63,493 bases of DNA from Promethearchaeota archaeon (GTDB taxonomy: Archaea > Asgardarchaeota > Lokiarchaeia > Sigyniarchaeales > SOKP01): positions 1 through 63,493 of the forward strand of contig DAOUVJ010000001.1 in the NCBI GenBank assembly GCA_030667705.1, written 5' to 3'. A program made the position numbers and the translations under genes. Below the pieces are notes generated by a model. It did not search any database. It was not told the origin of the DNA and saw only the letters and a program-made list of their open reading frames with translations. Shown here piece by piece: positions 27,752 through 51,846 of this stretch (positions are counted from its first letter, which is position 1; every line of letters starts with the position of its first letter).

Positions 27752-27772
27752 AGAATGAAAGGAAGTGAACTT

Positions 27773-37337: not shown

Positions 37338-39272
37338 TTATTTAATAAAGAAGTTCAATTCGATTTTTTCTAAAATTCTCACTGGCGTAAGGGTAATGTC
37401 CACTGCACATGTCTTTCGTTTTTTCATATAATCTGTGCTATACACACTCACTTCATAAGAATCTAATCCTCTTCTCTGTTTAATATTCTCCAAAAATTCA
37501 ACTATTTCTCCATTTATCAGATCCCAAGTAATAGAATCATTTTGTTCAAATGGAAAAAATTTACAGAAATTACTTATTGCTTTTTGACAATATAAAACTA
37601 ATCTTACAATGTTTAAATCCTGAAGAGCACTCGGTTTAGCTTGAGCAGTCAATTGCCCCCAAAGTGTATTGCCCTCAAGGAATTTTACTATTGGATTTAA
37701 TTGTTTCAGATACATACTATCTCTTTCACCTATTTTTGGACTATATCTCAATTCTTTAATAGAATCAATCGCTCCCCGAGTAAAACCAGCCGCAGCATAC
37801 CAAATCTCACCCACTGCATCATTTCTCGGTAACAAATAAGCCATATGGTAACATGGAGAAAACCATACATCTTGTCCAGTAAATGTATCATAAACTTTAT
37901 TATAAGATTCATAAAGAGCAACAAAATAATTATTAAAATTATGAGTATTTAATCTTGCGTCATATGCAAGAGTAAAAGATGCATTATCTCCATTATCCAA
38001 AATTCCTACACAATCTCTTCTGGTTGTAACTAAAGTATTAATTGAAGTTTTTACGTCGGTTGGATATCCACAATCAAATACTAAATTAAAATTAAGAAAT
38101 TCAGTATCTAAAATACTATCATCAATATTTCCTGCATATCCGCTACTAAGAAGCTGAGTGGCTATCGTAGTATTAAGACTTCCATCTGCATTTTTTAATT
38201 CTCCATCTGAACCTTTTTTCAATGGAGCCGGTTCTGAAATAACAAAAGGTTGAGAAATATTTGCAAAGTTCTTTTTAATAGTATAAACTATATCTGTAGA
38301 ATCTTCATCAAATAAAGAAACGCTATCATTCCAACCCCTTGATGTCAATGATCTATCTTGATAAACTGCACAAGATTCATTATCATCTCCGGAAGAAATT
38401 CCCAGCCATCCCCAAATTTTATTTCCTGTTCCGTCAACGGCAGTAATTACATATCTGGCAGATCCTAAAGATTGTTCCCAATCAGTAAAAACTTGTTTAT
38501 TATCTGTAATTAAAGCGGTCGCTCCATCTTTATCAAGTGAAATTGTTCCAATATTTTTATCAAAAACTTTAACAGCAATATCATATCCGTCAGACCAATC
38601 TTCATTTGTTTTTGACATATCTGCTCTGAGAACAGAAGAATATGAATTTAAAATATATTCAATAAAAAGTGAATCTCCGGCAGTGTCAACCGCATTTGGA
38701 TCAAAAGAAACATCAAAAGATTCTATAATAACATCATCTCCATCACTTTGTTTTTCATAGATATCTATCACATATACAGAGCTTATCATTGGGTTAGAGT
38801 ATTCTGATAATCTAACACCAATATTATTATAATATTCTCCCCTTCCAATTGGATATAAGAAACACAGAGCTTCAGAATTTGATGTAATATCTGAATCAAT
38901 TTCTACTTTTGTATTTATATCATCAACATAAGTAATAGAGATTGTTGCAGTCGAGTCAACAGTTTCGGCAGCATCTATTCTTATATTAGAAAAAGATGCA
39001 TTATCTGGAAGACAACGCATAAAGAAAGCAGAGCCGCTTTCTCCGAGGAAATTGTACATAGAATATAATCCCTGGCCATAGTTTTTGCCGTAATGGGAAA
39101 TATTAGGTTCTCCCCATTTTGAAATTAAATCTGATCTTCCCCCAACAAACATTAATTCATTATCGGGACCTTTCTCAGTCAATGCACATACAAGTCCGGT
39201 ACTTGCAGGAACAGCTTGTAAATAAGTACTGAGGTCTATAATTTTAACGTAAACACCTGGTGAAATAGCCAT
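37338..39272 (-). CDS. tail sheath protein (T4 gp18-like)
   Basis: 644 aa. N-terminus MAISPGVYVKIIDLS...GLVCALTEKGPDNELMFVGGRSDLISKWGEP, and C-terminus ...LNPIVKFLEGNTLWGQLT...LNIVRLVLY; both are typical of contractile sheath proteins. AAGGAG SD. Confidence 0.8.
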   Translation of the reverse strand: MAISPGVYVKIIDLSTYLQAVPASTGLVCALTEKGPDNELMFVGGRSDLISKWGEPNISHYGKNYGQGLYSMYNFLGESGSAFFMRCLPDNASFSNIRIDAAETVDSTATISITYVDDINTKVEIDSDITSNSEALCFLYPIGRGEYYNNIGVRLSEYSNPMISSVYVIDIYEKQSDGDDVIIESFDVSFDPNAVDTAGDSLFIEYILNSYSSVLRADMSKTNEDWSDGYDIAVKVFDKNIGTISLDKDGATALITDNKQVFTDWEQSLGSARYVITAVDGTGNKIWGWLGISSGDDNESCAVYQDRSLTSRGWNDSVSLFDEDSTDIVYTIKKNFANISQPFVISEPAPLKKGSDGELKNADGSLNTTIATQLLSSGYAGNIDDSILDTEFLNFNLVFDCGYPTDVKTSINTLVTTRRDCVGILDNGDNASFTLAYDARLNTHNFNNYFVALYESYNKVYDTFTGQDVWFSPCYHMAYLLPRNDAVGEIWYAAAGFTRGAIDSIKELRYSPKIGERDSMYLKQLNPIVKFLEGNTLWGQLTAQAKPSALQDLNIVRLVLYCQKAISNFCKFFPFEQNDSITWDLINGEIVEFLENIKQRRGLDSYEVSVYSTDYMKKRKTCAVDITLTPVRILEKIELNFFIK

Positions 39273-39382
39273 AGTTTCTCCTTTTTAAATTTTTTAATTC
39301 TCTAATTTGATTATTTCTCTATGAATAAAATCACCTTTCTTTTCAATCTCTATATTATCCATTTTAAAGAACCGCGCCTAGT

Positions 39383-39462
39383 ATATCTTTTGGTTCATTT
39401 GATCTTTTCTTAAATCTATGGAAACCTTTTAAGTACCAATAATTTGTTCTAATTCAAATCCT
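39383..39462 (-). pseudogene. heavily deleted footprint of a Hef-like homing endonuclease C-terminal region
   Basis: Aligns by eye, with several deletions, to 18141-18260 of paralog 3 (atatcttttggttcat...cttttcttaa...atctatg...ccttttaagtaccaataatt...tgttctaattcaaatcct). Confidence 0.5.
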
Positions 39463-39465
39463 GCA

Positions 39466-40146
39466 CTAAAAATATAAATACCATATGAAAACAATCCCTC
39501 TCGCAGAAGTTTTAACAATTGAAGTAAATGTCACTCGGGAAAATAGATGAAAATTTTCTGCTCCCGGACTATAAGCTGGCTCATCACTTTCTGCTGTATA
39601 TAATCCTGCTTCAGATATTTGAAATCCATTTGCATCCCCGGCACCAATAGTTGTGGTAACTTTCAAAACAATCCAAGAATTATCATTGGCAATATCCGTT
39701 TCATATGTAATTGAATCAAGTGGGTGTTTATAATAAGCATCTATTCTCCAATCTCCACATGTCGAATCTGTGGCACTTATTGCAATATCATTTCCCAACT
39801 CAGTATCTAGATTGGTTGGGGGTAATGGATTAAAGGGATCTCCTTCCGCAACTCCTCCATTACCTAATCCCAACCAATAAAGATGATCATTTATACCTGA
39901 GGCTACATTTGGATTATTTATATTTGTTAATAATTGTGCAAGAGTTTCTCTTCCTAAATAAACAACGAGATTTGATTTTTCAATTATCTTCTTTTTATTA
40001 TTTTCTAAAACTTCATATATTTCAACAAATCCTTCAGGTTTTCTTGTATTACTATCAATTTTACAATTAGAATCCCCAAGGCATTTATTTCCATATTGAT
40101 CTTCTATTCGTATTAATAAATCCTTCAAATCTTTTTGTTTATCCAT
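39466..40146 (-). CDS. virion structural protein (function unassigned)
   Basis: 226 aa immediately upstream of the sheath gene. The C-terminal ISEAGLY...FSRVTF..IVKT motif is of a kind I associate with tail or fibre proteins. Confidence 0.4.
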   Translation of the reverse strand: MDKQKDLKDLLIRIEDQYGNKCLGDSNCKIDSNTRKPEGFVEIYEVLENNKKKIIEKSNLVVYLGRETLAQLLTNINNPNVASGINDHLYWLGLGNGGVAEGDPFNPLPPTNLDTELGNDIAISATDSTCGDWRIDAYYKHPLDSITYETDIANDNSWIVLKVTTTIGAGDANGFQISEAGLYTAESDEPAYSPGAENFHLFSRVTFTSIVKTSARGIVFIWYLYF

Positions 40147-40206
40147 TTTTTCCTCTTTATATGAATTTTATATTTTGTTCTTAAGATTAAAACATATTAG
40201 TTTATT

Positions 40207-40467
40207 CTAAATGTGATTCTCTTTATTAGCTTTTGATTTTTCTTTATTTAAATTATGAGCATGATAAATAACATCTAAATGTTTAATATAAGATTGAACA
40301 TTTTCTGCTCGCATTCTATAACAAATTTCTCCAGTTATATATGGAAAGTTTCTATAGGAAGAAAATGGATTAGGTGGCCATTTTTCATAATATTCTTTTA
40401 TGACATGTTTATGTTCACAAACTGGTTTTTCTTTTTCAAATTCAGTTTTTATACCCATTGATTTCAT
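40207..40467 (-). CDS. hypothetical protein
   Basis: 86-aa ORF on the same strand as the structural genes. Confidence 0.4.
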   Translation of the reverse strand: MKSMGIKTEFEKEKPVCEHKHVIKEYYEKWPPNPFSSYRNFPYITGEICYRMRAENVQSYIKHLDVIYHAHNLNKEKSKANKENHI

Positions 40468-40491
40468 CTCCTATGATAATCTTGAATTTTA

Positions 40492-42135
40492 TTATAAATT
40501 AAATCCTGTTGGGACTGGATAAATGAAAGAACTGTCTCCAAAATTTCCAGTTATTGAATTCCAATTATCATAATCCACTATAATTTCACATTCGTCAGTT
40601 ATTGCCCCAATATCATAATAAGATCCACAATCATAAGTATCTCTTCTTGATCCCATACATGAAGAAATCGAATCTGGGCATGGCCAACTACAATTTTCTG
40701 CAGAAGTTGAATCTAACAAATCTCCATCAGACTCTACAAAATCAACAATTGTATGATGAATTCTCTCATCAACTATTTCTCCTACTCTTACAGATTCTGA
40801 TAAAGGGTTATCAAATTCAAATAATTCAACACTTTTCATTCTTGCGCGATATGGTTTAAAGAAATTAACGACTTCTTTAATTTCTTCAATAAAAGTAAAT
40901 AGACCAAAAATAACATATGAAATATTTATATAGGATAAATTAATTTGAAGTTTTATCCAATCTCCTAAATCAATTAATAGAGATATAACTAAATCTAAAT
41001 CATTTGAATCAAAAGAATAAGTCAGATGATCATATAATTCTAAATTTATTTCTTTTAAAATAACTCCCGCAGTATTTTCATTTTTCAAAAAATTAGTAGA
41101 TTCTGATCTTGTAAATAAATTATAAAATTCAGCTAATTTTAATTCTCTTTCATCTCTTGTTTTTGGTGACAAAGAAGTTAAATTATTATAATCTTCAATT
41201 ATGTCACTATAATCAGTTTTTGTTCCATTATAACATGAGAAAATATTTATTGGACTTATTCCAGTCGTATATATTTTATTAAAAATATAAACACATGATA
41301 AATATAATTCTAATAAAGAACATGTTTTTCCAAAAGTTGAAATAGGAGCATTTTGATTTGTAATAGTTCCTGTATTAATAAATTCTAAATATTGATCTTG
41401 GATTACTCTTGAAATAATAGTTAAAGAACCATTAATTTCTCTAAAATTATAAACTGGCCGAATAGCAAAATATGGAGTTCTTGAAGGTAAATTAATTTTA
41501 TTATTTAAATTTAATTGGAGAACTTGGCTTTCAGTTAACATCCAATGAGGATCATTAAGAATCATTTCATCAAAATCAAGTATATAATCATCTTTATATT
41601 TAGTTGAGGATATTGTTTGTTTTCCCCTAAATATTACTTTATTTAAAGATTCTCTTTCAAGCCAAAATTCATATAAATCTACTTTTGTTAATCCATAATA
41701 ACTTAAAATTTCAATTATTGATCTTGGAGTTCCTTTTATTTTATATAAATTAACTAAATCTAAAAATAAATTTACTTTGTTTTGATTAACTGAATATTTA
41801 GATGATACCAGAGAAATCTTATTTGAAGAATAAAGATATCCAAAACTTCTAAAAAGTTCATCTAAATGTGAATCGGGCATAGAATGGGGATCAGATATTT
41901 GAGATTGTAAAGAAGTTATTGTTTTATGAGAGGCATACCAATCAATTAAAAAATCTTTGAATCTTAAATAATCATCTGTATTAAATGAATTTTGATTAAT
42001 AGTATTATTAAAGAATTCAATTGTTTTTCCTTTTTCTGATTTTGCTAATGATTCAATAACTTCGGTGATATCCGGAACAGGTTCTTCCCCTTTTAAAGTA
42101 TCAAATATTTTCCAAAGATCATCTATTGTGAACAT
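40492..42135 (-). CDS. hypothetical structural protein
   Basis: 547-aa ORF in the structural gene string. No motif recognised. Confidence 0.45.
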   Translation of the reverse strand: MFTIDDLWKIFDTLKGEEPVPDITEVIESLAKSEKGKTIEFFNNTINQNSFNTDDYLRFKDFLIDWYASHKTITSLQSQISDPHSMPDSHLDELFRSFGYLYSSNKISLVSSKYSVNQNKVNLFLDLVNLYKIKGTPRSIIEILSYYGLTKVDLYEFWLERESLNKVIFRGKQTISSTKYKDDYILDFDEMILNDPHWMLTESQVLQLNLNNKINLPSRTPYFAIRPVYNFREINGSLTIISRVIQDQYLEFINTGTITNQNAPISTFGKTCSLLELYLSCVYIFNKIYTTGISPINIFSCYNGTKTDYSDIIEDYNNLTSLSPKTRDERELKLAEFYNLFTRSESTNFLKNENTAGVILKEINLELYDHLTYSFDSNDLDLVISLLIDLGDWIKLQINLSYINISYVIFGLFTFIEEIKEVVNFFKPYRARMKSVELFEFDNPLSESVRVGEIVDERIHHTIVDFVESDGDLLDSTSAENCSWPCPDSISSCMGSRRDTYDCGSYYDIGAITDECEIIVDYDNWNSITGNFGDSSFIYPVPTGFNL

Positions 42136-42171: not shown

Positions 42172-43545
42172 TTAAATAAATCTAATTGAGAAAGCTTCTC
42201 CAGTTCCTGCTTCTGGATCCCCACCATTTTGCCAAACTCCATTTTTAGAAAACCAAACTTTTTTATTAACTAAATCTAAAGCAATTCCTATATAATCTCC
42301 GGTTGTAAATGAATCTCCATAAGATTGAGAAATCCCGTTATTCATTTTATTCCCAGTGTTCCCAATGTAAACATAAGAATTAATGTCAGACCCCGCTTGT
42401 ACTCCTTCTAATAGTGAAAATTCATCTGATATTCCTATTATTGGATTTCCACATACATTTTGATTTATTTTTACTTCCCAATACCATTTTTGCCCTGACA
42501 TTTCTATTGTATTTCTGACTGCATCATTACTATCAAAAATTGTTTGATGAGCGGTTAAATTACCAACCATCAATTCTATATTAGGACTTTTATCATAAGG
42601 ATTCCAAGTATTTATATCCCAAGAACTTGAAAATGAACTTGAGCTAAAACTTGATGATGAACTTGAAAAAGATGAAGAACTCGAGCTAAAACTTGATGAT
42701 GAACTTGAGAAAGATGAGGAAGAACTTGCCCATATTTCATTTACTTCGGAGGTGCCAATAAGATCACATCCACCAAAAGCCAAAGCCGCAGCAGACGACC
42801 CACATCCAGCTAATCCATATCTTGGAATAATTAAAGAATTTGTAGTTGACCAAGAAGTTCCATTCCAAATCTCAGTTTTTGCAAATCCTACAGGATCACC
42901 ACCAAAAGACAGGGCGCTAGAAGTTGATCCGCAACCAGCGAATGTATGTTTTCCATTAATTAAAGAATTTGTGGTTGCCCAAGAAGATCCATTCCAAATC
43001 TCAGTTTCTGAAAAATATAATCCTCCATCATATCCACCAAAAGATAATGCAGCAGAAATTATCCCACAACCAGCTAATCCAAATCTTGCTATTGGTAAAG
43101 AATTTGTGGTTGCCCAAGAAGTTCCATTCCAAATCTCGGTTGATGAAAGATACAATACTCCATCAAATCCACCAAAAGATAATGCAGCAGAAATTGACCC
43201 ACACCCGGCTGGATTTGAATTTATAATATTTAAAGAACTAGTTGTCGACCAAGAAGTTCCATTCCAAATCTCAGTAATGTTTACTGGTATTATATTATCA
43301 GTGGATCCGCCGAAAGATAATGCTGCAGAAATTGACCCACACCCAGCTAATCCAAATCTTGCTATTGTTAAAGAATTTGTGGTTGCCCAAGAAGATCCAT
43401 TCCAAATCTCTGTGATAACACTAGGAATAAAATCTCCAATGGAAGGTAGACCCCCAAAAGCCAGAGCATCAGAAATTGTTCCACAACCACCGAGTTCCCA
43501 TTTTGGAGTATTTAAAGGACTTGTAGTTACCCATACCCAGCTCAT
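42172..43545 (-). CDS. six-bladed Kelch-like beta-propeller / poly-Ser linker / SPRY-domain protein
   Basis: Six ~45-aa repeats of TEIWNGSSWATTNSL....GLAGCGS.SAALSFGG. Next comes SSSSSFSSSSSSF... (about 35 aa). The C-terminus GQKWYWEVKIN...GISD...GDYIGIALDLVNKKVWFSKNG is an SPRY/B30.2 signature. Confidence 0.7.
   Translation of the reverse strand: MSWVWVTTSPLNTPKWELGGCGTISDALAFGGLPSIGDFIPSVITEIWNGSSWATTNSLTIARFGLAGCGSISAALSFGGSTDNIIPVNITEIWNGTSWSTTSSLNIINSNPAGCGSISAALSFGGFDGVLYLSSTEIWNGTSWATTNSLPIARFGLAGCGIISAALSFGGYDGGLYFSETEIWNGSSWATTNSLINGKHTFAGCGSTSSALSFGGDPVGFAKTEIWNGTSWSTTNSLIIPRYGLAGCGSSAAALAFGGCDLIGTSEVNEIWASSSSSFSSSSSSFSSSSSSFSSSSSSFSSSSFSSSWDINTWNPYDKSPNIELMVGNLTAHQTIFDSNDAVRNTIEMSGQKWYWEVKINQNVCGNPIIGISDEFSLLEGVQAGSDINSYVYIGNTGNKMNNGISQSYGDSFTTGDYIGIALDLVNKKVWFSKNGVWQNGGDPEAGTGEAFSIRFI
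42620..42727 (-). repeat. coding tandem repeat (poly-Ser/Phe linker)
   Basis: Imperfect repeats of gaacttgagctaaaacttgatgatgaacttga, the antisense of AGT/TCA Ser codons. Confidence 0.7.
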
Positions 43546-43605
43546 TATTAATTATTTCTCCAAAATATTTCTATCATAATAAAACTCCTATAAATATTAA
43601 TTTTT

Positions 43606-45108
43606 TTAAATTGCATAATCATCTCGATATTTCTCTAAAATTTTATTATCTTGAACAATATCTGAATGTCCATAAAATATTCCTTTATCTTTATCAACAT
43701 GAATACATTGAATTCCTGTATCTAAAATTGTCTCAACCGGGGTTTCAACATTTCTTATTTGTTGGCTTATATATGTATCTTCTGTTACTTGGATTTTTCC
43801 TTTTACAAAAATTTCTTTATACCAAGGAGGATTAATTTTTCTAAAAATTTCTGTTTTGAATAATGTACAACCTGAGCACATTACCAATACATCATCAAAA
43901 GTTTCCCCAATTTCAAAATTTACTCTATCTGGTCTGTTTTTATCATCTTCTATCATGGAACAAGATTCTAAAGGAAAATATTTCCTATAATAAAATCCTG
44001 ATGCTACATCATATCCATTTTTAAGATGATTCATTAATGTGACCAAAGTATTTTTAGGAATAATTAAATCATCGTCAATAAAAAATAAATATTCAAATTG
44101 ATCTTTAATAGCTTTTTCAACTATAAAATTTCTTGCATCAGCAACAGGAAATCCAAAAGGTTCTTCTGCCATTGCTGACATTCCTGCTGGGATTTGTAAT
44201 AAATGTAAATTACTTGCATTTCTATCTTCTTTTAATCTATGTGGAGTTCCGACTAAAACTTTATTAGTTGCTCTTTTAAAAAATTCTGAAACTACTTTTT
44301 CACTTTTTAACATTTCATCTTCATCTTTATATTCTTTACTACATGTATCATTTGGCCCTGGTCTTTCTAAAACTTTATGCCCAGGTTCCGGTAAAATTCT
44401 TTTTGTATTATCAGGATCATTTTCTAAAACTTTATTGTCCATAGAAAGTCTTGACATTAATTCTTTATTATCTGGATGCTCAGAAAAGTTCTTATAATGA
44501 GAAACTACATTTTCTCTGGCTTCACTATCTACTATATTTAAATTTTCCATTCTTAATTTATATCTTTTTAAATATCTTTCTGGATGATGAAGACCAAAAT
44601 CTTCTGACCCATGTTTTAATTGGGGTTCTAATTTTTGAATTATTTCTTCCCATTCCATAACTTCTCTCATTCTTTCTTTGGCAGTTTTCTTTTGAAGAAT
44701 ATCTCCAAATTTATTTTGTTCAATTTCTATTTTTTTCTTTTTAATTTTAGCTAAGATTTTTTTCTCTTGATATTTTTTATTATCGTTAGTATCTAATAAG
44801 TTTTCTTCTAATTCTTCAATCTCTGCTTCCATTAGTTCACGATCAGCTTCATGTTTTCCATTTTCAAAACTTAAAGTAATTAATTCTTGTAATTGTACAA
44901 TTTGTTCTCCAATTGCTTGCCAATATTTTGAATCTGGAGTTGGGTGGATATCCTTATTTAAAACTGAAGCTTCCATTTCAAATTTTGATCTAAAGATTGA
45001 TCTTGTCTTAAGTCTTTTTTCAAAATTTTCTTTATGTTCTTTTAAAAATTCATAATCAGATTTATTTATTAATCCTGTAGTTTTTAATACATTTAATTCT
45101 TTATTCAT
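43606..45108 (-). CDS. coiled-coil protein with C-terminal GT2-like glycosyltransferase domain
   Basis: 500 aa. The C-terminal half carries FFIDDDLIIPKNTLVTLMNHL (DxD), GFYYRKY, CSGCTLFK and TEDTYISQQ, a typical GT-A/GT2 pattern. Confidence 0.6.
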   Translation of the reverse strand: MNKELNVLKTTGLINKSDYEFLKEHKENFEKRLKTRSIFRSKFEMEASVLNKDIHPTPDSKYWQAIGEQIVQLQELITLSFENGKHEADRELMEAEIEELEENLLDTNDNKKYQEKKILAKIKKKKIEIEQNKFGDILQKKTAKERMREVMEWEEIIQKLEPQLKHGSEDFGLHHPERYLKRYKLRMENLNIVDSEARENVVSHYKNFSEHPDNKELMSRLSMDNKVLENDPDNTKRILPEPGHKVLERPGPNDTCSKEYKDEDEMLKSEKVVSEFFKRATNKVLVGTPHRLKEDRNASNLHLLQIPAGMSAMAEEPFGFPVADARNFIVEKAIKDQFEYLFFIDDDLIIPKNTLVTLMNHLKNGYDVASGFYYRKYFPLESCSMIEDDKNRPDRVNFEIGETFDDVLVMCSGCTLFKTEIFRKINPPWYKEIFVKGKIQVTEDTYISQQIRNVETPVETILDTGIQCIHVDKDKGIFYGHSDIVQDNKILEKYRDDYAI

Positions 45109-45155
45109 GTTTTTGGTTTTCCTTTCTTAAAAGTTTGATTTTAAAGTTTTTAAAT

Positions 45156-46283
45156 TTAAGATTCACTTTGATAAATAGATGCAATAGCATAATATTTTGT
45201 AGGAATTTTAGCAGATGAACTTGAGCTAAAACTCGACGATGAACTTGATGATGAACTTGAGCTAAAACTCGACGATGAACTTGAGAAAGATGATGATGAA
45301 CTTGATGAAGAACTTGAGCTAAAACTAGATGAAGAACTCGATGAAGAACTTGAGCTAAAACTAGATGAAGAACTTGAGAATGATGAAGAACTTGAGCTAA
45401 AACTAGATGAAGATGATGAACTTGAGAATGAGGAAGAACTTGAACTTGAGCTAAAACTCGACGATGAACTTGAGAATGAGGAAGAACTTGAGCTAAAACT
45501 TGACCAAAACTCAGTTTCCGATATCAAATCTCCTGACCCAAAAGAATCTTCTCCACCAAAACATAATGCTGCGGTAGAAGTTCCACAACCAGCTGCGGTT
45601 GTTCTTGCTTGAGATAAAGAATTTGTGGTCGCCCAAACAGATCCATCCCAAATCTCAGTTGGGAGAAGTCCCCCACTAAAACATAATGCAGCAGAAACTG
45701 TCCCACAACCAGAACAATGAGGTCTATTAGAAATTACTGCAAGTGTAGTCGCCCAAACAGATCCATTCCAAATTTCACTATTTAAAGTTACATTATATCC
45801 ACCAAAAATAAAAGAATTTGAACTATTTCCTGCTATTCCAAAATAATATCTTACTGGGTCGATTGAATTACTCGTGGTCGCCCAAGAAGATCCATTCCAA
45901 ATCTCAGTTGAATTGTTTGTTCCTGCCACACATAATGCAGCAGAAATTGTCCCACATAATCCTGCAGCCCATCTGCCAGTTATATTTAGAGAACTTGTAG
46001 TTGCCCAAGAAGATCCATTCCAAATCTCAGTTGAATAAAGAGATTCACCGCCTGCACATAATGCATCTGAAATCGTTCCACAACCACTTGGTCCATATTT
46101 TGTTTCATTTAAAGAATTTGTAATCGCCCAAACATCTCCGCCCCAAATCTCAGTTATATCAGAATGAATAGCTGCAGTGGAATCTTCACCCCCAAAAGAT
46201 AATGCGTCAGAAATCGTTCCGCAACCGGCTAATGCTAATCTTGGTACATTTAAAGGACTTGTAGTTCTCCATACCCAGCTCAT
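45156..46283 (-). CDS. six-bladed Kelch-like beta-propeller with ~100-aa poly-Ser (SSSSSSF)n tail
   Basis: The N-terminus MSWVWRTTSPLN and the TEIWNGSSWATT...GCGT.SAAL.FGG repeats are paralogous to 42172-43545. A long S/F low-complexity region follows, ending AKIPTKYYAIASIYQSES. Confidence 0.7.
   Translation of the reverse strand: MSWVWRTTSPLNVPRLALAGCGTISDALSFGGEDSTAAIHSDITEIWGGDVWAITNSLNETKYGPSGCGTISDALCAGGESLYSTEIWNGSSWATTSSLNITGRWAAGLCGTISAALCVAGTNNSTEIWNGSSWATTSNSIDPVRYYFGIAGNSSNSFIFGGYNVTLNSEIWNGSVWATTLAVISNRPHCSGCGTVSAALCFSGGLLPTEIWDGSVWATTNSLSQARTTAAGCGTSTAALCFGGEDSFGSGDLISETEFWSSFSSSSSSFSSSSSSFSSSSSSSSFSSSSSSSSFSSSSSSFSSSSSSFSSSSSSSSSSSFSSSSSSSSSSSFSSSSSSFSSSSSSSSSSSFSSSSSAKIPTKYYAIASIYQSES
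45213..45503 (-). repeat. coding tandem repeat (poly-Ser/Phe)
   Basis: About 290 nt of degenerate gaacttgagctaaaact(c/a)ga(c/t)ga(t/a)ga units. Confidence 0.75.
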
Positions 46284-46390
46284 TATTAATTACTTCCCCA
46301 ACAAATTATAGAATATATTTTTAAATTCTTCATTATTAAATCTCCTTTTTATATTTGTTCCATATATAATCTAAGTCAAGTGACAAAAAA

Positions 46391-46990
46391 TTAAACTCCT
46401 CTTATTGAAATTGTTGTAAATATTTCATCAGAAACCAAAGACTCATACATATTTTCTAATATATTATCAAATGAAGATATTAATATTTGATTATCATAAT
46501 TAGAAGTTCTCCCATATATCTTTAATTCTAAATATAGAAATATTAATTTTGCTAAATTAGAAGATATGTTTGAATATGAAGCATATAAAACATTATCTAC
46601 AAAACTGATTTCAATTGAATCAATAATTGTGACAGAAGTTGAGTCTTGTCTATATTGTAATAATGCATTTAATAATACTAAATCTTCATCATTTAAATTA
46701 AAAGAATTATCTCCAGTTTCTGCACATTTATAATATTTCCCTGCACTTGGATATATTAACATTCTAGTTTTAACAATATTAGGCCAAGAATATCTATTTG
46801 TATCTTCATTATATTTATAATAATATTCAGAGTAAGAATAACTTTCATTAAATAAAAGTTCTATGAAAGATTTAGGAGGAAGATATATATCATTAATTTC
46901 AGTCGGAATTGTAATTTGGTTTTTATTAACACTTGAATTTTTTACAAATCTATTAAACCAAGAATTTAATTCCGGTATTAAATTTGTCAT
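46391..46990 (-). CDS. hypothetical protein
   Basis: 199-aa ORF between the propeller gene and the large glycosyltransferase gene. Confidence 0.45.
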   Translation of the reverse strand: MTNLIPELNSWFNRFVKNSSVNKNQITIPTEINDIYLPPKSFIELLFNESYSYSEYYYKYNEDTNRYSWPNIVKTRMLIYPSAGKYYKCAETGDNSFNLNDEDLVLLNALLQYRQDSTSVTIIDSIEISFVDNVLYASYSNISSNLAKLIFLYLELKIYGRTSNYDNQILISSFDNILENMYESLVSDEIFTTISIRGV

Positions 46991-47162
46991 TTGATTATAT
47001 CCTCTCTAAATTTTAATTTTATTCTGTTTTTATATATTTGTTCTTGGTTTTTATCTCAAAAGGATAAAATATCTAAATCTAATTTGTTATATAGGGATAT
47101 TTTTCAATTCCCAATTCTTTTTAAAATACAAAAGATCCCAAGGGAAAACTTGTATTGAATTT

Positions 47163-49865
47163 TTAGATAATTCCTCCTTCCACCCAGTTCTCTTTTCTAA
47201 ATTCAGAAAATGCTCGTTCTTTTGCATTCTCTCCTTTTTCTTTTAATATTTTTGGATTTATTATCATTCTTATAATTTCATAATAATCTTCAATTTCATT
47301 GCATCTCCAACCAGTTGAATTTGTTACTCGTTCTTTTGCACCAAAAGCATTATCACATATACAAGGTAATCCGCAAGCCATTGCTTCAAGTATTACTCTT
47401 GGGCCAGCATCAGAATATCCCTCTGGAAGATTATACCAAAAACAATTTCCTTTACTTAAAAATTTAGGAACTGATATTTCATTTCTTTTATAGATGTTAA
47501 ATCTATATATATCATTATATGATTTATCATTAAAAAAAGATGAGTCAATAAAACTGGGTGCTGGCATAAATGAAAATTCTACATCATCTTTAATTTTTAT
47601 AATATGTTTAACTATTTCATTAAAATCTTTTTTATATTTTGCATCACCTTGAGAAGAATGTCTGACTAATTTTAATGATCCTGAATAATCTATTTTGACT
47701 TTAAAAAATGGATCTAAATCAACTGGAGGAGCAAGAACTTGAGTATTAGCTTTTGGTATTCTATTTAAAAATTCATGCTCTTTTTCCCTATTCAAAAATA
47801 TATATTTATCCCAATTTTTTGTCCATTCAGTTTTTCCTGCCCAACCCAATTGATAATTTAATATCATTACTTTCTTTTTAGTATTTAAATTATACATATT
47901 TGAATATTGTTCTTGGTTATAATTCCAAATTGTATCCGAACAATAAAGTACTGTTAGTTCTGAATTATTTTTAAGATCCATCCAATCAATAACTGAAAGA
48001 TTATCTCTAAGACCTTCTAAATTTTTTAAATATTCTCCACAAATATTTCCAGTTGGTAATAATTCAATATGATAATTTTTATCAATTAACATTTTCATTA
48101 TTTCAATAGAAGATCTTTCACTACCACCAAATCCCCTACAAGTTGTAATCATTCTAACTATTGGTTTGATATTATTAATTTTATATGATATATTTTTCTT
48201 TCGCCATAAATGACATCTATGACCACCTTTTGAAATTAATTCGTATTCTCCATTTTTCAAATATTTATCCTGCCATTTTTGTTCCCATTCTCTTCCTGCA
48301 TCATGCATTATTATGAACTTAGATTTTTCTGATGCTATTTTTGTTGAGAATTCTCTGTTAATTCCATTGGCAGGACCATCTATAAAACTAAAATCAAAAT
48401 CTTCTAATTCTTGATTAATAACTTTTCCACCCCATTTGAATATTTCAACTTTTTTATTAACTAATTTTTTTACTTTATTAATATATTCATCTTTAGTTTC
48501 AAACGATTTTATTTTATCAACTTTATTCATCATTAATAAAGTACTTAATCCGCAACCAAATTCAAGAACATTTCTAATATTATATTTAGTAATTATACCT
48601 TCAATAAAAATCCAATCCTCATTTGTAATAGATGATCCTCCAAATGTATAACCAAACATTTCAATTTGAGGTTTATCTATTTTCTTATTATCAAATGATT
48701 TATTAATATGTATTTTTGAATCAGGAATTATGTTCTTAAAAAACTTATTTTCAACTTTTATTCCATATTCCAATCTTCCCCCTTTATAATATTTTCTAAT
48801 TGCCTCAATGACTTCTTCTGGTTCAATTATATCTACACATTTTGGAATTTTATTTTTTTGATTTAAACACCCATCAATTTTACATTTCCAGCAAGAATTT
48901 AGTTCTGCACATTTTAAAGTTCCATTTGTAGATAAATATTGATGTCCTGCATATTGTGTAAACCATTGTGGTTCACGAGCCCCAGCTACTACACAACAAG
49001 GATTATTAAATGCAGCCGATAAATGCATATGAGCAGAAACTAATCCGACTGATCCCTGAGCATGAAGAAATATTTTAAATAAATCTCGAATTCCAGTTTT
49101 AGGATCTTCAGTTTTTCCAATAAAATCTATTACGTTTTTTAAATGAGGATATGGATGATTTTTTAATCCCAATTGGACAAATTGAATTTCTGGTAATGAA
49201 TCTATTACTTTTTGCCATTTTTCAATTGGATACATTTTTGATGTCCACCCAGGTTCACCCCCAACTATAATTACCCAGTAAGGACCACTTATTAAAGGTT
49301 TACTATTATATTCCTTCTCTGATAACCATATGTCCGGATAAATATTTCCTTGAGGAATATGGAGGTCTAATTTGTTCTCAGTATCTATTCTAAAAGCATT
49401 ACACATGTGGAGATTCCATCTATTAGATTTATTAGTTAAAAATCCAGGACCAACTTTTAGAATTAATTCTTCTTCGGTTAAACTAAAATCTATATAAGGA
49501 TTATTATCCCATATATGAGAAGCCGTAGTTTTTACTCCAATTTGAGTATTAGGAAATTCCTTTTTAAAATCTCTTATTAAACAAGTCATAGTTAAAATAT
49601 CCCCAATACATTGCCTATTATGAAAAATTATTTTTTTAGGAACTTCTTTATTATTACTATGATTATAATTTCTACTATTATGATTTCTATGATTATCTAA
49701 ATCTTCAGTTAATATTTCAAATATCTCTTTTTCTGGGATAACATGATGAATATGATTATCCTCAAATAAAATAGACATTAAAATATCTTTAGGTTTTTTC
49801 TCAATAATTTCAGATTGATTTTCCAGATCTTTTATTTCTTTACTTATAAATTCTTTTATATTCAT
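47163..49865 (-). CDS. tri-domain enzyme: GT9 (heptosyltransferase-like), class I SAM methyltransferase, GT4-like glycosyltransferase
   Basis: 900 aa. The N-terminal part (CIGDILTMTCLIRDFKKEFPNTQIG...GGEPGWTSKMYPIEKWQKVI...GSVGLVSAHMHLSAAFNNPCCVVAG) is GT9-like. The middle (VLEFGCGLSTLLMM...FSFIDGP) is MTase motif I / post-I. The C-terminus (GPRVILEAMACGLPCICDN..GAKERV.NSTGW) is a GT-B/GT4 signature. Confidence 0.65.
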   Translation of the reverse strand: MNIKEFISKEIKDLENQSEIIEKKPKDILMSILFEDNHIHHVIPEKEIFEILTEDLDNHRNHNSRNYNHSNNKEVPKKIIFHNRQCIGDILTMTCLIRDFKKEFPNTQIGVKTTASHIWDNNPYIDFSLTEEELILKVGPGFLTNKSNRWNLHMCNAFRIDTENKLDLHIPQGNIYPDIWLSEKEYNSKPLISGPYWVIIVGGEPGWTSKMYPIEKWQKVIDSLPEIQFVQLGLKNHPYPHLKNVIDFIGKTEDPKTGIRDLFKIFLHAQGSVGLVSAHMHLSAAFNNPCCVVAGAREPQWFTQYAGHQYLSTNGTLKCAELNSCWKCKIDGCLNQKNKIPKCVDIIEPEEVIEAIRKYYKGGRLEYGIKVENKFFKNIIPDSKIHINKSFDNKKIDKPQIEMFGYTFGGSSITNEDWIFIEGIITKYNIRNVLEFGCGLSTLLMMNKVDKIKSFETKDEYINKVKKLVNKKVEIFKWGGKVINQELEDFDFSFIDGPANGINREFSTKIASEKSKFIIMHDAGREWEQKWQDKYLKNGEYELISKGGHRCHLWRKKNISYKINNIKPIVRMITTCRGFGGSERSSIEIMKMLIDKNYHIELLPTGNICGEYLKNLEGLRDNLSVIDWMDLKNNSELTVLYCSDTIWNYNQEQYSNMYNLNTKKKVMILNYQLGWAGKTEWTKNWDKYIFLNREKEHEFLNRIPKANTQVLAPPVDLDPFFKVKIDYSGSLKLVRHSSQGDAKYKKDFNEIVKHIIKIKDDVEFSFMPAPSFIDSSFFNDKSYNDIYRFNIYKRNEISVPKFLSKGNCFWYNLPEGYSDAGPRVILEAMACGLPCICDNAFGAKERVTNSTGWRCNEIEDYYEIIRMIINPKILKEKGENAKERAFSEFRKENWVEGGII

Positions 49866-49901: not shown

Positions 49902-50486
49902 CTATTTTTGATCAATAATTTTGATTAAATTATTTGTAGATTGCATATCAAGAATGTGTATAAATAAAACTTCTGGTGGAAAATCTTTAAAATTAAATTT
50001 ATTTCTATCTCCAATTTCTGTGGCCCAGCGCCCGGCATGGTAGCGGGCCATTTTTTCCATAATACAAAATTCTTCCTCACTTAATAACTTTAAAAAAGTA
50101 GATTTATTTTCAATTATAACATCTGCAATTTGTTTATCATGAGTTGAGTCTGTATGTTTTCTAGAAGAAAATTCTCCATATTTAAAAGTGTCATGTAAAC
50201 TAATAGCAAATAAAATCATATCAGCTTTCGATGTATTTTTTTGAATATTAAATATGGGCAATAATTTTATAGATGAATATAATAATTCAAAAGTATGATG
50301 AGCATTTGTAGGAACACTTCCATCTTCTTTTAAATGATATTTCCCAGTTGAAGAAGTAGGATTATTCCAAGCATCTGGTAAAATTGTTTTAATACCAATC
50401 CATAATTTATATCCGCGTTCAGACATATTTTCTTTTAAAATTTTATCTATTTCTATTTCATAATTCATTATTAAAAATCCTTTCAT
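49902..50486 (-). CDS. HD-domain phosphohydrolase-like protein
   Basis: 194 aa with NAHHTFELL...ISLHDTFKYG...HD..., an H..HD..D pattern. Confidence 0.45.
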   Translation of the reverse strand: MKGFLIMNYEIEIDKILKENMSERGYKLWIGIKTILPDAWNNPTSSTGKYHLKEDGSVPTNAHHTFELLYSSIKLLPIFNIQKNTSKADMILFAISLHDTFKYGEFSSRKHTDSTHDKQIADVIIENKSTFLKLLSEEEFCIMEKMARYHAGRWATEIGDRNKFNFKDFPPEVLFIHILDMQSTNNLIKIIDQK

Positions 50487-51313: not shown

Positions 51314-51583
51314 ATGATTGATAATATAAGTACAAAAGATTTGCAGGCAGAATTGAATCGTCGACAAAAAGCCAAACAAGAATCATTAAAACCAAAGAAA
51401 CTTTCAGAACCAAATATTGCCCCACTTCAAAAAATGTGCCAAGAGTATATAGATGCAATAGATACAAAAGATCCAAGAGATGGTTTGGACTATGATGATT
51501 TTAAACAATATATTTTTGAATGTGCGGTGGAAACAGTTTTTGGTAAAGATGTGTGGGAATTTATTAACTCAAAAAATCAATAG
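51314..51583 (+). CDS. hypothetical protein, tandem paralog A1
   Basis: 89 aa with an AGGAGG SD. Shares M.DNISTKDLQAELNRRQ...IDTKDPRD...YIFECA.ETVFGKDVWEFIN with the next gene. Confidence 0.55.
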   Translation: MIDNISTKDLQAELNRRQKAKQESLKPKKLSEPNIAPLQKMCQEYIDAIDTKDPRDGLDYDDFKQYIFECAVETVFGKDVWEFINSKNQ

Positions 51584-51591
51584 GAGTCAAT

Positions 51592-51846
51592 ATGTTTGAT
51601 AATATAAGTACAAAAGATTTGCAGGCAGAATTGAATCGTCGACAAGAAACCAAACCAAAGAAACTTTCATGTCCGAATATTATCCCACTTCAAAAAATGT
51701 GCCAAGATTATATAAATTTAATAGATACAAAAGATCCAAGAGATAATTTGAACTATGATGATTTTACAGAATATATTTTTGAATGTGCAATGGAAACAGT
51801 TTTTGGTAAAGATGTATGGGAATTTATTAACTTAAAAGAGCAATAG
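51592..51846 (+). CDS. hypothetical protein, tandem paralog A2
   Basis: 84 aa, highly similar to 51314-51583. Confidence 0.55.
   Translation: MFDNISTKDLQAELNRRQETKPKKLSCPNIIPLQKMCQDYINLIDTKDPRDNLNYDDFTEYIFECAMETVFGKDVWEFINLKEQ

What the first reader, a model, noticed from the sequence alone, without database searches (positions are those of the whole stretch)
42172..49865. Virion glycosylation-like island: Kelch-propeller proteins with (SSSSSSF)n linkers, a SPRY domain, and three glycosyltransferase domains plus a methyltransferase
Seen in the sequence: two paralogous structural-module proteins (42172-43545 and 45156-46283) start MSWVW.TTSPLN and contain six TEIWNGSSWATT...GCG..SAAL.FGG blades. 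Both continue into poly-Ser tracts punctuated by Phe, about 35 aa in one and about 100 aa in the other, encoded by degenerate tandem DNA repeats. The first ends in an SPRY/B30.2-type domain (GQKWYWEVKI...GDYIGIALDL...FSKNG). Interleaved with them are a GT2-like enzyme (DxD FFIDDDL) carrying a 300-aa coiled-coil N-terminus, and a 900-aa fusion of GT9-like, SAM-methyltransferase (VLEFGCGLS) and GT4-like (EAMACGLPCI) domains. Established knowledge: Ser/Thr-rich linkers are classical O-glycosylation targets, and phage-encoded glycosyltransferases that decorate capsid or tail proteins have been described in some mycobacteriophages (from memory). Inference: this phage may O-glycosylate, and possibly methylate the sugars on, its own propeller/SPRY fibre proteins. 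Kelch plus SPRY in a phage tail module, and a GT9-MTase-GT4 fusion, both look unusual to me.
Basis: partly seen in the sequence, partly recalled or inferred. Interest (0 to 1): 0.8.

Follow-up and report, generated by a model that had tools for sequence, protein, structure and literature searches.

The report
Phage poly-serine glycosylation module
An uncultured tailed phage encodes two propeller-shaped fibre-like proteins with long runs of serine next to sugar-adding enzymes, and comparison with about 100 related contigs shows that such serine runs travel with one of these enzymes, so these phages probably coat their particles in a sugar "fur".

Summary
All genes lie on the minus strand: two paralogous six-bladed Kelch-type propeller proteins with Ser/Phe tracts of 35 and 97 aa, one ending in SPRY; a GT-A enzyme; and a 900-aa GT9-like/SAM-methyltransferase/GT4 fusion ("E").

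E is not a one-off. It has 328 clusters (at 50% identity) in metagenomes, none among 50,697 isolated-phage records, and only 4 MAG contigs among 185,579 cellular genomes.

Poly-Ser ORFs lie within 10 kb of E in 27 of 50 loci, against 0 of 29 control loci (p = 2e-7). They fall into 28 unrelated protein families, including tail fibre, baseplate J, tail proteins and lectin-like domains.

A reverse search from one poly-Ser family found 20 of 20 loci with the tail. Thirteen had an E-family gene 1–3 kb downstream; in eight the hit covers only the GT9-like domain.

That domain keeps the catalytic Asp and Lys of the serine O-heptosyltransferase TibC, and three of TibC's four iron-finger cysteines.

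The propellers themselves are local cargo. Their closest relative lacks them, and about 120 homologues lack Ser tracts.

Best reading: virion proteins are O-glycosylated on portable poly-Ser tags. This is inferred, not shown. The arrangement is widespread and I found no description of it in the literature.

The parts
47163..49865 (-). Protein E, 900 aa: three-domain enzyme (GT9/BAHT-like GT-B, SAM methyltransferase, GT4 GT-B). It is the conserved core of the system.
   Evidence: Pfam GT9 and GT1 above cut-off. More than 120 full-length homologues at 45-55% identity. 328 clusters at E<=1e-30. AF2 mean pLDDT 82.7; three domains read from that model plus the Pfam and profile hits. Foldseek.
48771..49643 (-). 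E residues ~75-365: GT9-like GT-B domain with invariant D89 (CIGDILT) and K210, proposed to start Ser O-glycosylation.
   Evidence: Pfam GT9. hhalign to TibC over E 166-359, E = 1.2e-3, with TibC K230 aligned to E K210. TibC D110 motif GTLGDLL compared with E CIGDILT by eye. TibC is the first GT9-type Foldseek hit. This domain occurs alone beside poly-Ser genes in 8 loci.
48837..48911 (-). Cys cluster C319/C325/C328/C333/C343 inside the GT9-like C-lobe: putative metal finger.
   Evidence: C319, C325, C333 and C343 are invariant in 30 sequences. C319, C333 and C343 align with TibC iron-finger C342, C358 and C370 (PMC4358343).
48198..48653 (-). E residues ~405-556: class I SAM-dependent methyltransferase-like domain.
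   Evidence: Invariant F436 G437 G439 L440 S441, plus D496 G497 P498. PDB profile hits: 2yvl, TrmR 8k1f, YrrM 5zw3. Alternating strand/helix Rossmann-type pattern in the AF2 model. No Pfam hit.
47166..48161 (-). E residues ~569-900: GT4-type GT-B glycosyltransferase domain.
   Evidence: Pfam Glycos_transf_1 in 28 of 30 family members. Foldseek BshA, PglA, PimB' at E = 9e-13 to 1e-10.
46391..46990 (-). Protein D, 199 aa, unknown function. Conserved neighbour of B in the closest relative.
   Evidence: No Pfam, PHROG or NCBIfam hit. 80% identical in L086, directly upstream of B.
45156..46283 (-). Protein C, 375 aa: six-bladed Kelch-type propeller, 97-aa poly-Ser/Phe tract, 18-aa tail.
   Evidence: phrog_27227 at 6.8e-21.
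45213..45503 (-). Poly-Ser/Phe tract of C (residues 261-357): proposed O-glycosylation acceptor.
   Evidence: Tandem repeats. All six Ser codons used.
43606..45108 (-). Protein B, 500 aa: N-terminal helical domain, disordered linker, C-terminal GT-A glycosyltransferase.
   Evidence: Pfam GT2. 106 homologues. AF2 pLDDT 88. Foldseek best hit STIV A197 (E = 2e-9, TM 0.72), then COLGALT1.
44539..45096 (-). B residues ~5-190: conserved helical hairpin domain (motif HPTPDSKYWQAIGEQ) that travels with propeller genes.
   Evidence: In IMG/VR loci L060-L079 only this region of B matches; where the ORF was read (L068) it is a free-standing 227-aa protein. A propeller gene lies within ~2 kb in 20 of 29 loci and within 10 kb in 23 of 29 (example L068).
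42172..43545 (-). Protein A, 457 aa: six-bladed Kelch-type propeller, 35-aa (SSSSSSF)n linker, SPRY domain.
42622..42726 (-). Poly-Ser/Phe linker of A (residues 274-308).
42232..42489 (-). SPRY domain of A (residues 353-438): lectin-like putative binding module.
   Evidence: Pfam SPRY 1.6e-13. SPRY homologues in pelagiphages and cyanophages.
37338..42135 (-). Structural context downstream of A: protein G (40492-42135), protein H (39466-40146, PHROG 'virion structural protein') and the tail sheath (37338-39272).
   Evidence: G and H are conserved in L086, and H and the sheath in L002.

Best explanation
The island is the local form of a phage system that glycosylates the phage's own virion proteins.

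The conserved engine is protein E. Its GT9/BAHT-like domain is proposed to transfer the first sugar onto serine hydroxyls of homopolymeric Ser tracts. Its GT4 domain would extend the glycan, and its SAM-methyltransferase domain would methylate a sugar. The product would be a dense, mucin-like bottlebrush.

The Ser tract acts as a portable acceptor tag. In different phages it is attached to unrelated surface proteins. Here it sits on two Kelch-type propeller proteins that were inserted on either side of gene B. One of them also carries a SPRY lectin-like head.

Protein B is a second enzyme, a GT-A glycosyltransferase. Its N-terminal helical domain is the usual genomic partner of propeller-fibre genes, so it probably docks on, or helps assemble or modify, the propeller proteins.

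Shown: domain identities, family sizes, gene-neighbourhood associations, and conserved catalytic and Cys residues.
Inferred: that the Ser tracts are the acceptor, the order of the reactions, the sugar, and that these proteins are in the virion.
For: 1. Poly-Ser ORFs (at least 25 residues inside tracts with at least 70% Ser) lie within 10 kb of an E homologue in 27 of 50 loci. None occurs in 29 control loci that carry B and propeller genes but no E (473 kb). Fisher p = 1.8e-7. Both long MAG loci carrying E also have them.
2. The E loci span GC 0.28-0.60. The 44 poly-Ser proteins fall into 28 sequence-unrelated clusters, so the tract was acquired many times.
3. Their globular parts include a tail fibre, Baseplate_J, tail proteins (phrog_1101 and phrog_1082), LamG and F5/8-type-C domains.
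4. Reverse test: starting from one poly-Ser protein family, 20 of 20 loci carry the tail and 13 of 20 have an E-family gene 1.2-3.4 kb downstream. Five of the seven without it run out of sequence. In 8 loci the hit covers only the GT9-like domain (E residues ~72-367).
5. In L035 the gene order is portal, major capsid protein, poly-Ser protein, dTDP-glucose 4,6-dehydratase, DegT aminotransferase, E. A sugar pathway is therefore embedded in a head module.
6. E's GT9-like domain: TibC is the first GT9-type Foldseek hit (E = 1.4e-8). hhalign aligns TibC K230 with E K210, and iron-finger C342/C358/C370 with invariant E C319/C333/C343. The catalytic Asp motif is shared. TibC glycosylates Ser but not Thr.
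7. E is virtually confined to viral contigs: 4 MAG contigs among 185,579 species genomes.
8. The window's only two poly-Ser ORFs lie within 5 kb of E, between it and the tail sheath.
9. Tract length differs between close relatives: 68 vs 188 aa in L042/L043 and 121 vs 109 aa in L022/L028.
Against: There is no biochemical, glycoproteomic or virion evidence.

23 of 50 E loci show no poly-Ser ORF within 10 kb. Several of these, including the relative L002, carry sugar-modifying genes instead.

The loci are not phylogenetically independent, and some are near-duplicates (L004/L005/L008, L017/L018, L022/L028, L042/L043).

The control set is one other gene neighbourhood, not a random sample of phages.

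Poly-Ser linkers exist in bacterial enzymes as plain flexible spacers (my own knowledge).

The TibC alignment is weak (hhalign probability 19%). One of TibC's four Cys does not align. E lacks TibC's N-terminal beta-barrel. E's HLSAAF motif resembles LPS heptosyltransferases, as judged by eye. I could not confirm that the Foldseek TibC hit maps to the N-terminal domain.

No sugar-nucleotide genes were found in the window.

The closest relative has B without propeller neighbours. One B homologue sits among nucleotide-metabolism genes.
Confidence: 0.55

Rival explanations
1. The Ser tracts are simply flexible, protease-tolerant linkers or spacers that are fashionable in this group of phages. The glycosyltransferases act on something else. 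The co-occurrence reflects shared ancestry, or genomic clustering of accessory genes, rather than an enzyme-substrate relationship.
For: 23 of 50 E loci have no poly-Ser ORF nearby. The propeller family works without Ser tracts in about 120 homologues. Punctuating residues (F, L, I, C, R, W) are mostly single-nucleotide neighbours of Ser codons, which fits neutral drift amplified by repeat duplication (inferred). Poly-Ser linkers are known in secreted bacterial carbohydrate-active enzymes (my own knowledge).
Against: The tract has been added independently to 28 unrelated protein families, but only where E is nearby. The association holds in myovirus-like and podovirus-like contigs and from 28% to 60% GC. 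The GT9-like domain alone stays linked to a poly-Ser gene. A nucleotide-sugar pathway sits between the poly-Ser gene and E inside a head module.
Confidence: 0.22
2. E and B remodel the host cell surface (LPS core, O-antigen or capsule) during infection, for example for superinfection exclusion or to stop progeny adsorbing to lysed cells, as other phage-encoded glycosyltransferases do.
For: GT9 and GT4 are classical LPS and polysaccharide families. NCBIfam gives weak hits to RfaQ, RfaC and heptosyltransferases I and III. JGI annotators named homologues 'ADP-heptose:LPS heptosyltransferase'. Relatives carry CmcI-type methyltransferases, DegT and epimerase genes typical of O-antigen pathways.
Against: All NCBIfam scores are about 10-fold below the family cut-offs. 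E is essentially absent from cellular genomes. It lies in structural modules beside sheath, baseplate or capsid genes. This rival does not explain the poly-Ser association.
Confidence: 0.1
3. The enzymes hypermodify phage DNA by glycosylating and methylating hydroxymethylated bases.
For: Phage GT-A and GT-B enzymes that put mono- or di-heptose and other sugars on 5hmC are known (bioRxiv 10.1101/2023.12.21.572611). In some relatives E lies near gp32, HU, an HD protein and a dNMP kinase. One B homologue neighbours thymidylate-synthase-like, dCMP deaminase and RNR genes. B has a faint TAGT hit (E = 0.097).
Against: The known DNA GT-B enzymes resemble T4 beta-glucosyltransferase and sit beside C5-MT, 5mYOX or ThyS genes. 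No T4 beta-GT appears among E's top 50 Foldseek hits. No such base-modifying gene was found among the window ORFs scanned. This rival does not explain the poly-Ser link or B's link to propeller genes.
Confidence: 0.06

Closest known systems
Bacterial autotransporter heptosyltransferases (BAHT: TibC, AAH)
   Same: GT9-type GT-B fold. Catalytic Asp in an (I/L)GD(I/L)L motif. The phosphate-binding Lys aligns with an invariant Lys of E. A Cys-rich finger is inserted at the same place in the C-lobe, with three of its four Cys aligned. TibC hyperglycosylates many serines, not threonines, of a repetitive protein in the cytoplasm.
   Different: E lacks the N-terminal beta-barrel and has different Cys spacing. 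Its HLSAAF motif looks like that of LPS heptosyltransferases. It is fused to a methyltransferase and a GT4 domain. It is phage-encoded. The presumed acceptor is a disordered homopolymer, not a beta-helix. The donor sugar is unknown; relatives encode a 4-amino-4,6-dideoxyhexose-type pathway rather than a heptose pathway.
Mycobacteriophage virion glycosylation (Freeman et al. 2023, as summarised in PMC12619734)
   Same: Phage-encoded glycosyltransferases decorate the phage's own structural proteins. The glycans sit on terminal extensions of capsid and tail-tube subunits.
   Different: No detectable homology: E and B have no tblastn match in 50,697 phage records. Here the acceptor would be long homopolymeric Ser tracts on fibre, baseplate and decoration-type proteins. 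The enzymes are GT9-like/MTase/GT4 and helical-domain/GT-A fusions.
Chlorovirus PBCV-1 A064R (GT-GT-methyltransferase)
   Same: A single viral polypeptide with two glycosyltransferase domains and a class I SAM methyltransferase. It builds and methylates the glycan of the virus's own capsid protein (PMC9614988).
   Different: A eukaryotic giant virus. The glycan is N-linked. The folds (GT-A and a novel GT) and the domain order differ. No homology was shown.
Serine-rich repeat glycoproteins (SRRPs) of Gram-positive bacteria with GtfA/GtfB
   Same: Very long Ser-rich repeats are densely O-glycosylated in the cytoplasm by dedicated GT4-type enzymes encoded next to the substrate gene, giving fibrillar surface adhesins (PMC6973325).
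   Different: SRRP repeats are Ser-X dipeptide-like rather than near-pure poly-Ser. SRRPs need an accessory Sec export system. They are cellular, not viral. No GT9 or methyltransferase fusion is involved.
STIV A197 and other viral GT-A enzymes (for protein B)
   Same: B's C-terminal domain is a GT-A fold with a DxD motif. Its closest solved structure is the archaeal-virus glycosyltransferase A197 (E = 2e-9, TM 0.72).
   Different: B carries a 190-aa helical domain that is the conserved neighbour of Kelch-type propeller genes. No substrate is known for either enzyme.

Membership tests
Kelch beta-propeller superfamily (proteins A, C) | Six ~45-aa repeats homologous to Kelch blades | tested here: met
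   A family profile (A3) hits six-bladed Kelch structures (SAKe 7e-18; KLHL2, KLHL3, KLHL12 and KEAP1 at 1e-15 to 1e-11) over about 240 residues. Six GCG...FGG / EIWNG.SW units are seen in the sequence.
Kelch beta-propeller superfamily (proteins A, C) | Scores above Pfam Kelch gathering thresholds | tested here: not met
   Best is PF24681 at 20.4 bits against a 50-bit cut-off. C has no Pfam hit. Only 1 of 29 family members hits a Kelch model at E<=0.01.
SPRY domain (protein A C-terminus) | Pfam SPRY above gathering threshold | tested here: met
   51.2 bits against a 26.3-bit cut-off, E = 1.6e-13, residues 353-438.
CAZy GT9 / heptosyltransferase fold (E N-terminal domain) | Pfam Glyco_transf_9 above threshold, with conserved catalytic Asp and phosphate-binding Lys | tested here: met
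   27.5 bits against a 22-bit cut-off. 10 of 30 members hit GT9. D89 and K210 are invariant. K210 aligns to TibC K230.
CAZy GT9 / heptosyltransferase fold (E N-terminal domain) | Uses ADP-heptose as donor | not testable with these tools
   No ADP-heptose genes were found in the window. Relatives encode a 4,6-dehydratase and a DegT aminotransferase instead.
BAHT family (TibC/AAH) | Cys4 iron-finger insertion in the C-lobe | tested here: inconclusive
   Three of the four TibC ligands (C342, C358, C370) align with invariant E C319, C333, C343. The fourth would have to be C325 or C328. hhalign E = 1.2e-3 with probability only 19%. Metal binding was not tested.
BAHT family (TibC/AAH) | N-terminal flattened beta-barrel domain | tested here: not met
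   In the AF2 model, E residues 1-75 are two helices and two short strands. TibC has a 97-residue beta-barrel.
BAHT family (TibC/AAH) | Acts on serines of an autotransporter beta-helix; dodecameric ring | not testable with these tools
   No autotransporter is present. The proposed acceptor is a poly-Ser tract. The oligomeric state is unknown.
Class I SAM-dependent methyltransferase (E middle domain) | Rossmann fold with a glycine-rich SAM motif | tested here: inconclusive
   Invariant EFGxGLS and DGP motifs. PDB profile hits to TrmI-like and YrrM/TrmR O-methyltransferases at E = 8.5e-4 to 0.3. Alternating strand/helix pattern in the AF2 model. No Pfam hit in any of 30 members.
CAZy GT4 / Glycos_transf_1 (E C-terminal domain) | GT-B fold with the GT1-family C-terminal signature | tested here: met
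   Pfam 27.5 bits against a 26.4-bit cut-off, and 28 of 30 members hit. Foldseek BshA at 9e-13, TM 0.61-0.64 normalised to the target.
GT-A / GT2 (protein B C-terminal domain) | GT-A fold with a DxD motif | tested here: met
   Pfam GT2 29.2 bits against a 23.3-bit cut-off. D346 and D347 are invariant. Foldseek A197 at E = 2e-9.
Mycobacteriophage virion-glycosylation system | Homologous glycosyltransferases | tested here: not met
   No tblastn match of E or B in the GenBank phage collection, which I assume includes the mycobacteriophages.
Mycobacteriophage virion-glycosylation system | Glycans demonstrated on virion proteins | not testable with these tools
   There is no isolate and no proteomics.
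SRRP / GtfAB / accessory-Sec system | Accessory SecA2/Y2 export genes and a GtfA-GtfB pair | tested here: not met
   None was found among the window ORFs scanned with Pfam.

The most novel reading that the evidence does not exclude
Homopolymeric serine tracts are a portable 'glyco-tag'. Any virion surface protein (fibre, baseplate, capsid decoration, lectin head) can acquire one. A phage-specific GT9/BAHT-like enzyme then recognises and processively coats it, alone or fused to a methyltransferase and a GT4 domain. The result would be mucin-like bottlebrush filaments: a virus-built glycocalyx on tailed phages, found from podovirus-like contigs of about 40 kb to phage contigs of more than 200 kb, and so far invisible because no cultured phage carries it.
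Probability: 0.4. Interest if true: 0.85.

Novelty: new variant of a known kind. Interest (0 to 1): 0.74.

Why it matters
Virion glycosylation by phage-encoded enzymes has so far been shown only in a few mycobacteriophages. This finding points to a much wider and mechanistically different version.

Three things would follow if it is real:
- It supplies a defined acceptor (poly-Ser) and a defined candidate initiating enzyme, which makes the idea directly testable in E. coli.
- Mucin-like coats on phage particles would affect adsorption, sticking to mucus and particles, grazing and decay in aquatic systems, and antibody or receptor shielding.
- A short genetically encodable tag plus a soluble cytoplasmic glycosyltransferase would be a useful glyco-engineering tool.

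It also gives a function to several large families of 'hypothetical' metagenomic proteins: the E family, the B N-terminal domain, and the Kelch-type phage propellers.

Tried and rejected
Searches that led nowhere:
- Looking up the window's own E protein in the contig index found no record.
- The search for related loci with E alone produced no matching pattern. It worked once I used the alignment A1.
I replaced it with the reverse test through a poly-Ser protein family.
- phmmer of E's N-terminal domain and the B profile against PDB sequences gave nothing. I obtained TibC from the ETEC H10407 chromosome instead and compared it by hhalign.
- The Freeman 2023 paper is not held, so I cite it only through PMC12619734.
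- Literature searches for poly-serine or serine-rich phage proteins together with glycosyltransferases found nothing relevant.
- I could not decide whether the window belongs to the 'moraphage' lineage.

Ideas considered and rejected:
- The plus-strand ORF 42752-43579, and the open antisense frame of the Ser tracts (ELELKLDDEL repeats), as real genes. The minus-strand frames carry the domain homology on both sides of the tracts.
- The conserved N-G-S/T in each propeller blade as an N-glycosylation sequon. Homologues often have D in place of N, which fits a structural turn.
- B's N-terminus as a generic coiled coil. It is a conserved domain with invariant residues.

Full report
WHAT IS THERE

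The region holds five co-directional minus-strand genes between an HD-like gene (49902-50486) and a structural block. That block comprises G (40492-42135), H (39466-40146, a PHROG 'virion structural protein') and the tail sheath (37338-39272). The sheath resembles those of jumbo myoviruses such as AR9, PBS1 and phiR1-37 at 27-30% identity. Elsewhere the window carries baseplate genes (T4_baseplate, gp25, a wedge subunit) and a tape-measure-like protein. This is an AT-rich (about 28% GC) uncultured contractile-tailed phage. The window is a complete 63,493-bp NCBI contig.

Proteins A and C are paralogues, 53% identical over the propeller, with six blades each.
- A family profile matches solved six-bladed Kelch propellers at 7e-18 to 1e-11.
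- Individual sequences miss Pfam's Kelch thresholds.
- A continues through a 35-aa (SSSSSSF)n linker into a bona fide SPRY domain (1.6e-13).
- C ends in a 97-aa Ser/Phe tract.
- The tracts are encoded by degenerate tandem repeats and use all six Ser codons from both boxes. The amino acid is what is conserved.

Protein B has a C-terminal GT-A domain.
- Pfam GT2 scores above threshold and the DD is invariant.
- Its nearest structure is the archaeal-virus glycosyltransferase A197, followed by collagen galactosyltransferase.

Protein E reads as three domains on the AF2 model (pLDDT 82.7) taken together with the Pfam and profile hits.
- GT9-like GT-B domain, residues ~75-365.
- Rossmann-type methyltransferase-like domain, ~405-556. 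It has an invariant EFGxGLS motif and weak PDB profile hits to O-methyltransferases.
- GT4 GT-B domain, ~569-900, with Foldseek hits at 9e-13.

WHAT IS NOT UNUSUAL

- The propeller family has 283 hits in the large protein database. Most are 320-450-aa metagenomic proteins with a short N-terminal anchor and a C-terminal propeller.
- SPRY domains are frequent in pelagiphages and cyanophages.
- E has more than 120 full-length homologues at 45-55% identity, some interrupted by inteins, and 328 clusters (50% identity) at E<=1e-30.
- Neither E nor B has any match in 50,697 deposited phage genomes.
- E occurs in only four MAG contigs among 185,579 species genomes.

These are therefore large, virus-restricted families that have not been characterised.

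THE KEY RESULT

I fetched 50 loci around E homologues and asked what travels with E.
- The propeller, D, F and G do not.
- Long Ser tracts do. ORFs with 25 to more than 1,000 residues of near-pure Ser, punctuated by single F, L, I, V, R, C or K residues, lie within 10 kb of E in 27 of 50 loci, mostly on E's strand.
- Both long MAG loci also have them.
- The control was 29 loci fetched through protein B's family. They hold many propeller genes but no E, and none has such an ORF. Fisher p = 1.8e-7.
- The E loci span 28-60% GC, so base composition is not the cause.
- The 44 poly-Ser proteins fall into 28 sequence-unrelated clusters.
- Their globular parts include a tail fibre, Baseplate_J, tail proteins of phrog_1101 and phrog_1082, LamG, F5/8-type-C and SPRY-like domains, beta-helices and other propellers.

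The tract has thus been added repeatedly to different virion-surface proteins.

REVERSE TEST

I started from one such family: a ~175-aa domain followed by a poly-Ser tail.
- All 20 IMG/VR loci found carry a 96-202-aa Ser tail.
- 13 of 20 have an E-family gene 1.2-3.4 kb downstream. Five of the other seven run out of sequence.
- In eight loci the hit covers only E residues ~72-367, the GT9-like domain.
- In L035, a podovirus-like 41-kb contig, the order is portal, major capsid protein, poly-Ser protein, dTDP-glucose 4,6-dehydratase, DegT aminotransferase, E.

A sugar pathway and its presumed acceptor are therefore embedded in a head module. The poly-Ser gene sits where decoration proteins usually sit.

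MECHANISTIC CLUE

TibC is the Ser-specific protein O-heptosyltransferase that hyperglycosylates autotransporters in the cytoplasm.
- TibC is the first GT9-type structure in E's Foldseek list (E = 1.4e-8).
- hhalign of the E family against TibC (fetched) aligns E 166-359 with TibC 195-386.
- TibC's phosphate-binding K230 falls on invariant E K210.
- Three of TibC's four iron-finger cysteines (C342, C358, C370; PMC4358343) fall on invariant E C319, C333 and C343.
- The catalytic Asp motif is shared: GTLGDLL in TibC against CIGDILT in E (by eye).

The match is weak (probability 19%). E lacks TibC's beta-barrel. One motif looks more like that of LPS heptosyltransferases. I therefore say E 'works like' a BAHT, not that it is a member of the family.

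THE PROPELLERS AND PROTEIN B

B's N-terminal ~190 residues form a conserved helical hairpin.
- In loci L060-L079 only this part of B matches, with no GT domain. Where I read the ORF (L068) it is a free-standing 227-aa protein.
- A Kelch-type propeller gene lies within about 2 kb in 20 of 29 loci, and within 10 kb in 23 of 29.
- A 23.8-kb contig shows the same interleaving as the window: propeller, B, propeller, propeller. It also has a methyltransferase and a 1,222-aa multi-GT protein nearby.
- The closest relative of the island (L086; D 80%, B 74%, G 79%, H 78% identical) has the order D-B-G-H with no propeller genes.

A and C are therefore recent insertions on either side of B. They are the only members of their family seen with Ser tracts, and they occur in a genome that has E.

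INTERPRETATION

The best-supported model is virion-protein O-glycosylation on portable poly-Ser tags (confidence about 0.55).
- The GT9/BAHT-like domain of E starts the glycan.
- The GT4 domain extends it.
- The methyltransferase domain methylates it. This architecture parallels chlorovirus A064R.
- B is a second, propeller-associated glycosyltransferase or assembly factor.

Rivals:
- Ser tracts are plain linkers with unrelated enzymes nearby (0.22).
- The enzymes remodel the host envelope (0.10).
- The enzymes glycosylate phage DNA (0.06).

None of the rivals explains the repeated, cross-lineage coupling of Ser tracts with the GT9-like gene.

LIMITS

- Only 10 kb on each side of each gene was examined.
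- The loci are not phylogenetically independent.
- The control is a single alternative neighbourhood.
- The window itself has no sugar-nucleotide genes.
- Nothing is known experimentally.

NOVELTY

Phage virion glycosylation is known in mycobacteriophages (cited in PMC12619734). Ser-rich glycoproteins and BAHTs are known in bacteria. I found no report of poly-Ser virion proteins coupled to a GT9-like/MTase/GT4 enzyme in phages. I rate this a new variant of a known kind, of high interest because it is widespread and directly testable.

Noticed in passing
window 6580-8349, 15776-17587, 18054-19700 (all minus strand): Three paralogous 550-600-aa genes are interspersed in the baseplate module. They match PHROG 'homing/HNH endonuclease' families at about 1e-108 and Pfam DUF7487, with zinc-finger and Mom-like/REase pieces. 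They look like selfish endonuclease genes that have multiplied inside structural operons. A similar repeat-rich ORF sits at the end of L086.
   Followed up: partly
window 29798-30166, 30202-30570, 30606-30971 (plus strand): Three tandem paralogues of 121-122 aa, all starting MKIKKDF(V/I)TNSSST, with no assigned function.
   Followed up: no
window 51314-51583 and 51592-51846; 51868-52209 and 52240-52647 (plus strand): Two further pairs of adjacent small paralogues. One pair shares M(I/F)DNISTKDLQAELNRRQ...; the other shares a C-terminal KIYIV.C.DK... motif. Together with the triplet above, this suggests local gene duplication is frequent in this genome.
   Followed up: no
window 24338-25699, 27755-28666, 32026-33063 (plus strand): A CCA-adding/poly(A)-polymerase-family enzyme with an HD domain, an RlaP-family nucleotidyltransferase and a radical-SAM/SPASM protein. 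The set looks like RNA repair or modification. The CCA-type enzyme and the radical-SAM gene recur in relative L002.
   Followed up: partly
window 44539-45096 (B N-terminal domain); loci L060-L079: A ~190-aa helical-hairpin domain (motif HPTPDSKYWQAIGEQ) is the near-constant genomic neighbour of Kelch-type propeller fibre genes in diverse phage contigs. In those loci only this part of B matches, without the glycosyltransferase. It may be a fibre chaperone or adaptor family. It has no PDB sequence match.
   Followed up: partly
L035 5450-12787 (also L089): A podovirus-like 41-kb contig has a head-module cassette: major capsid protein, poly-Ser-tailed protein, dTDP-glucose 4,6-dehydratase, DegT aminotransferase, E homologue. 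This suggests a 4-amino-4,6-dideoxyhexose glycan on a capsid decoration protein.
   Followed up: yes
P0227, P0240 (E homologues); L001 2483-4705: Some E homologues are interrupted by inteins (Intein_splicing and LAGLIDADG Pfam domains). Inteins usually sit in highly conserved, essential proteins. Another intein-containing gene lies 5 kb from E in L001.
   Followed up: no
L014 3-4904 and 13508-21196: Extreme cases: one ORF with more than 1,280 consecutive residues of near-pure Ser, and a 2,563-aa protein in which six Ser tracts (29-338 aa) alternate with F5/8-type-C, LamG and SPRY-like domains.
   Followed up: partly
window 42622-42726 and 45213-45503, plus strand: The reverse-complement frame of both Ser tracts is open and would encode acidic ELELKLDDEL-type repeats. 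The plus-strand ORF 42752-43579 shadows the propeller repeats. I judged these to be shadow ORFs, since the domain homology is all on the minus strand.
   Followed up: yes
window 61339-62625 (minus strand): A 428-aa protein with a CBM_4_9 carbohydrate-binding domain (E = 1.3e-5), another candidate glycan-binding structural protein.
   Followed up: no
L088 148-12410: A 60%-identical B homologue lies among thymidylate-synthase-like, RNR, dCMP deaminase, QueC, polysaccharide pyruvyl-transferase and SIS (GmhA-like) genes. B's genomic context is therefore not always structural.
   Followed up: no
P0182, P0197; L080, L081: E homologues are deposited under archaeal MAG names (Heimdallarchaeaceae, Aenigmatarchaeota, Woesearchaeota). 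These are probably viral contigs binned by composition, but an archaeal host is not excluded.
   Followed up: no
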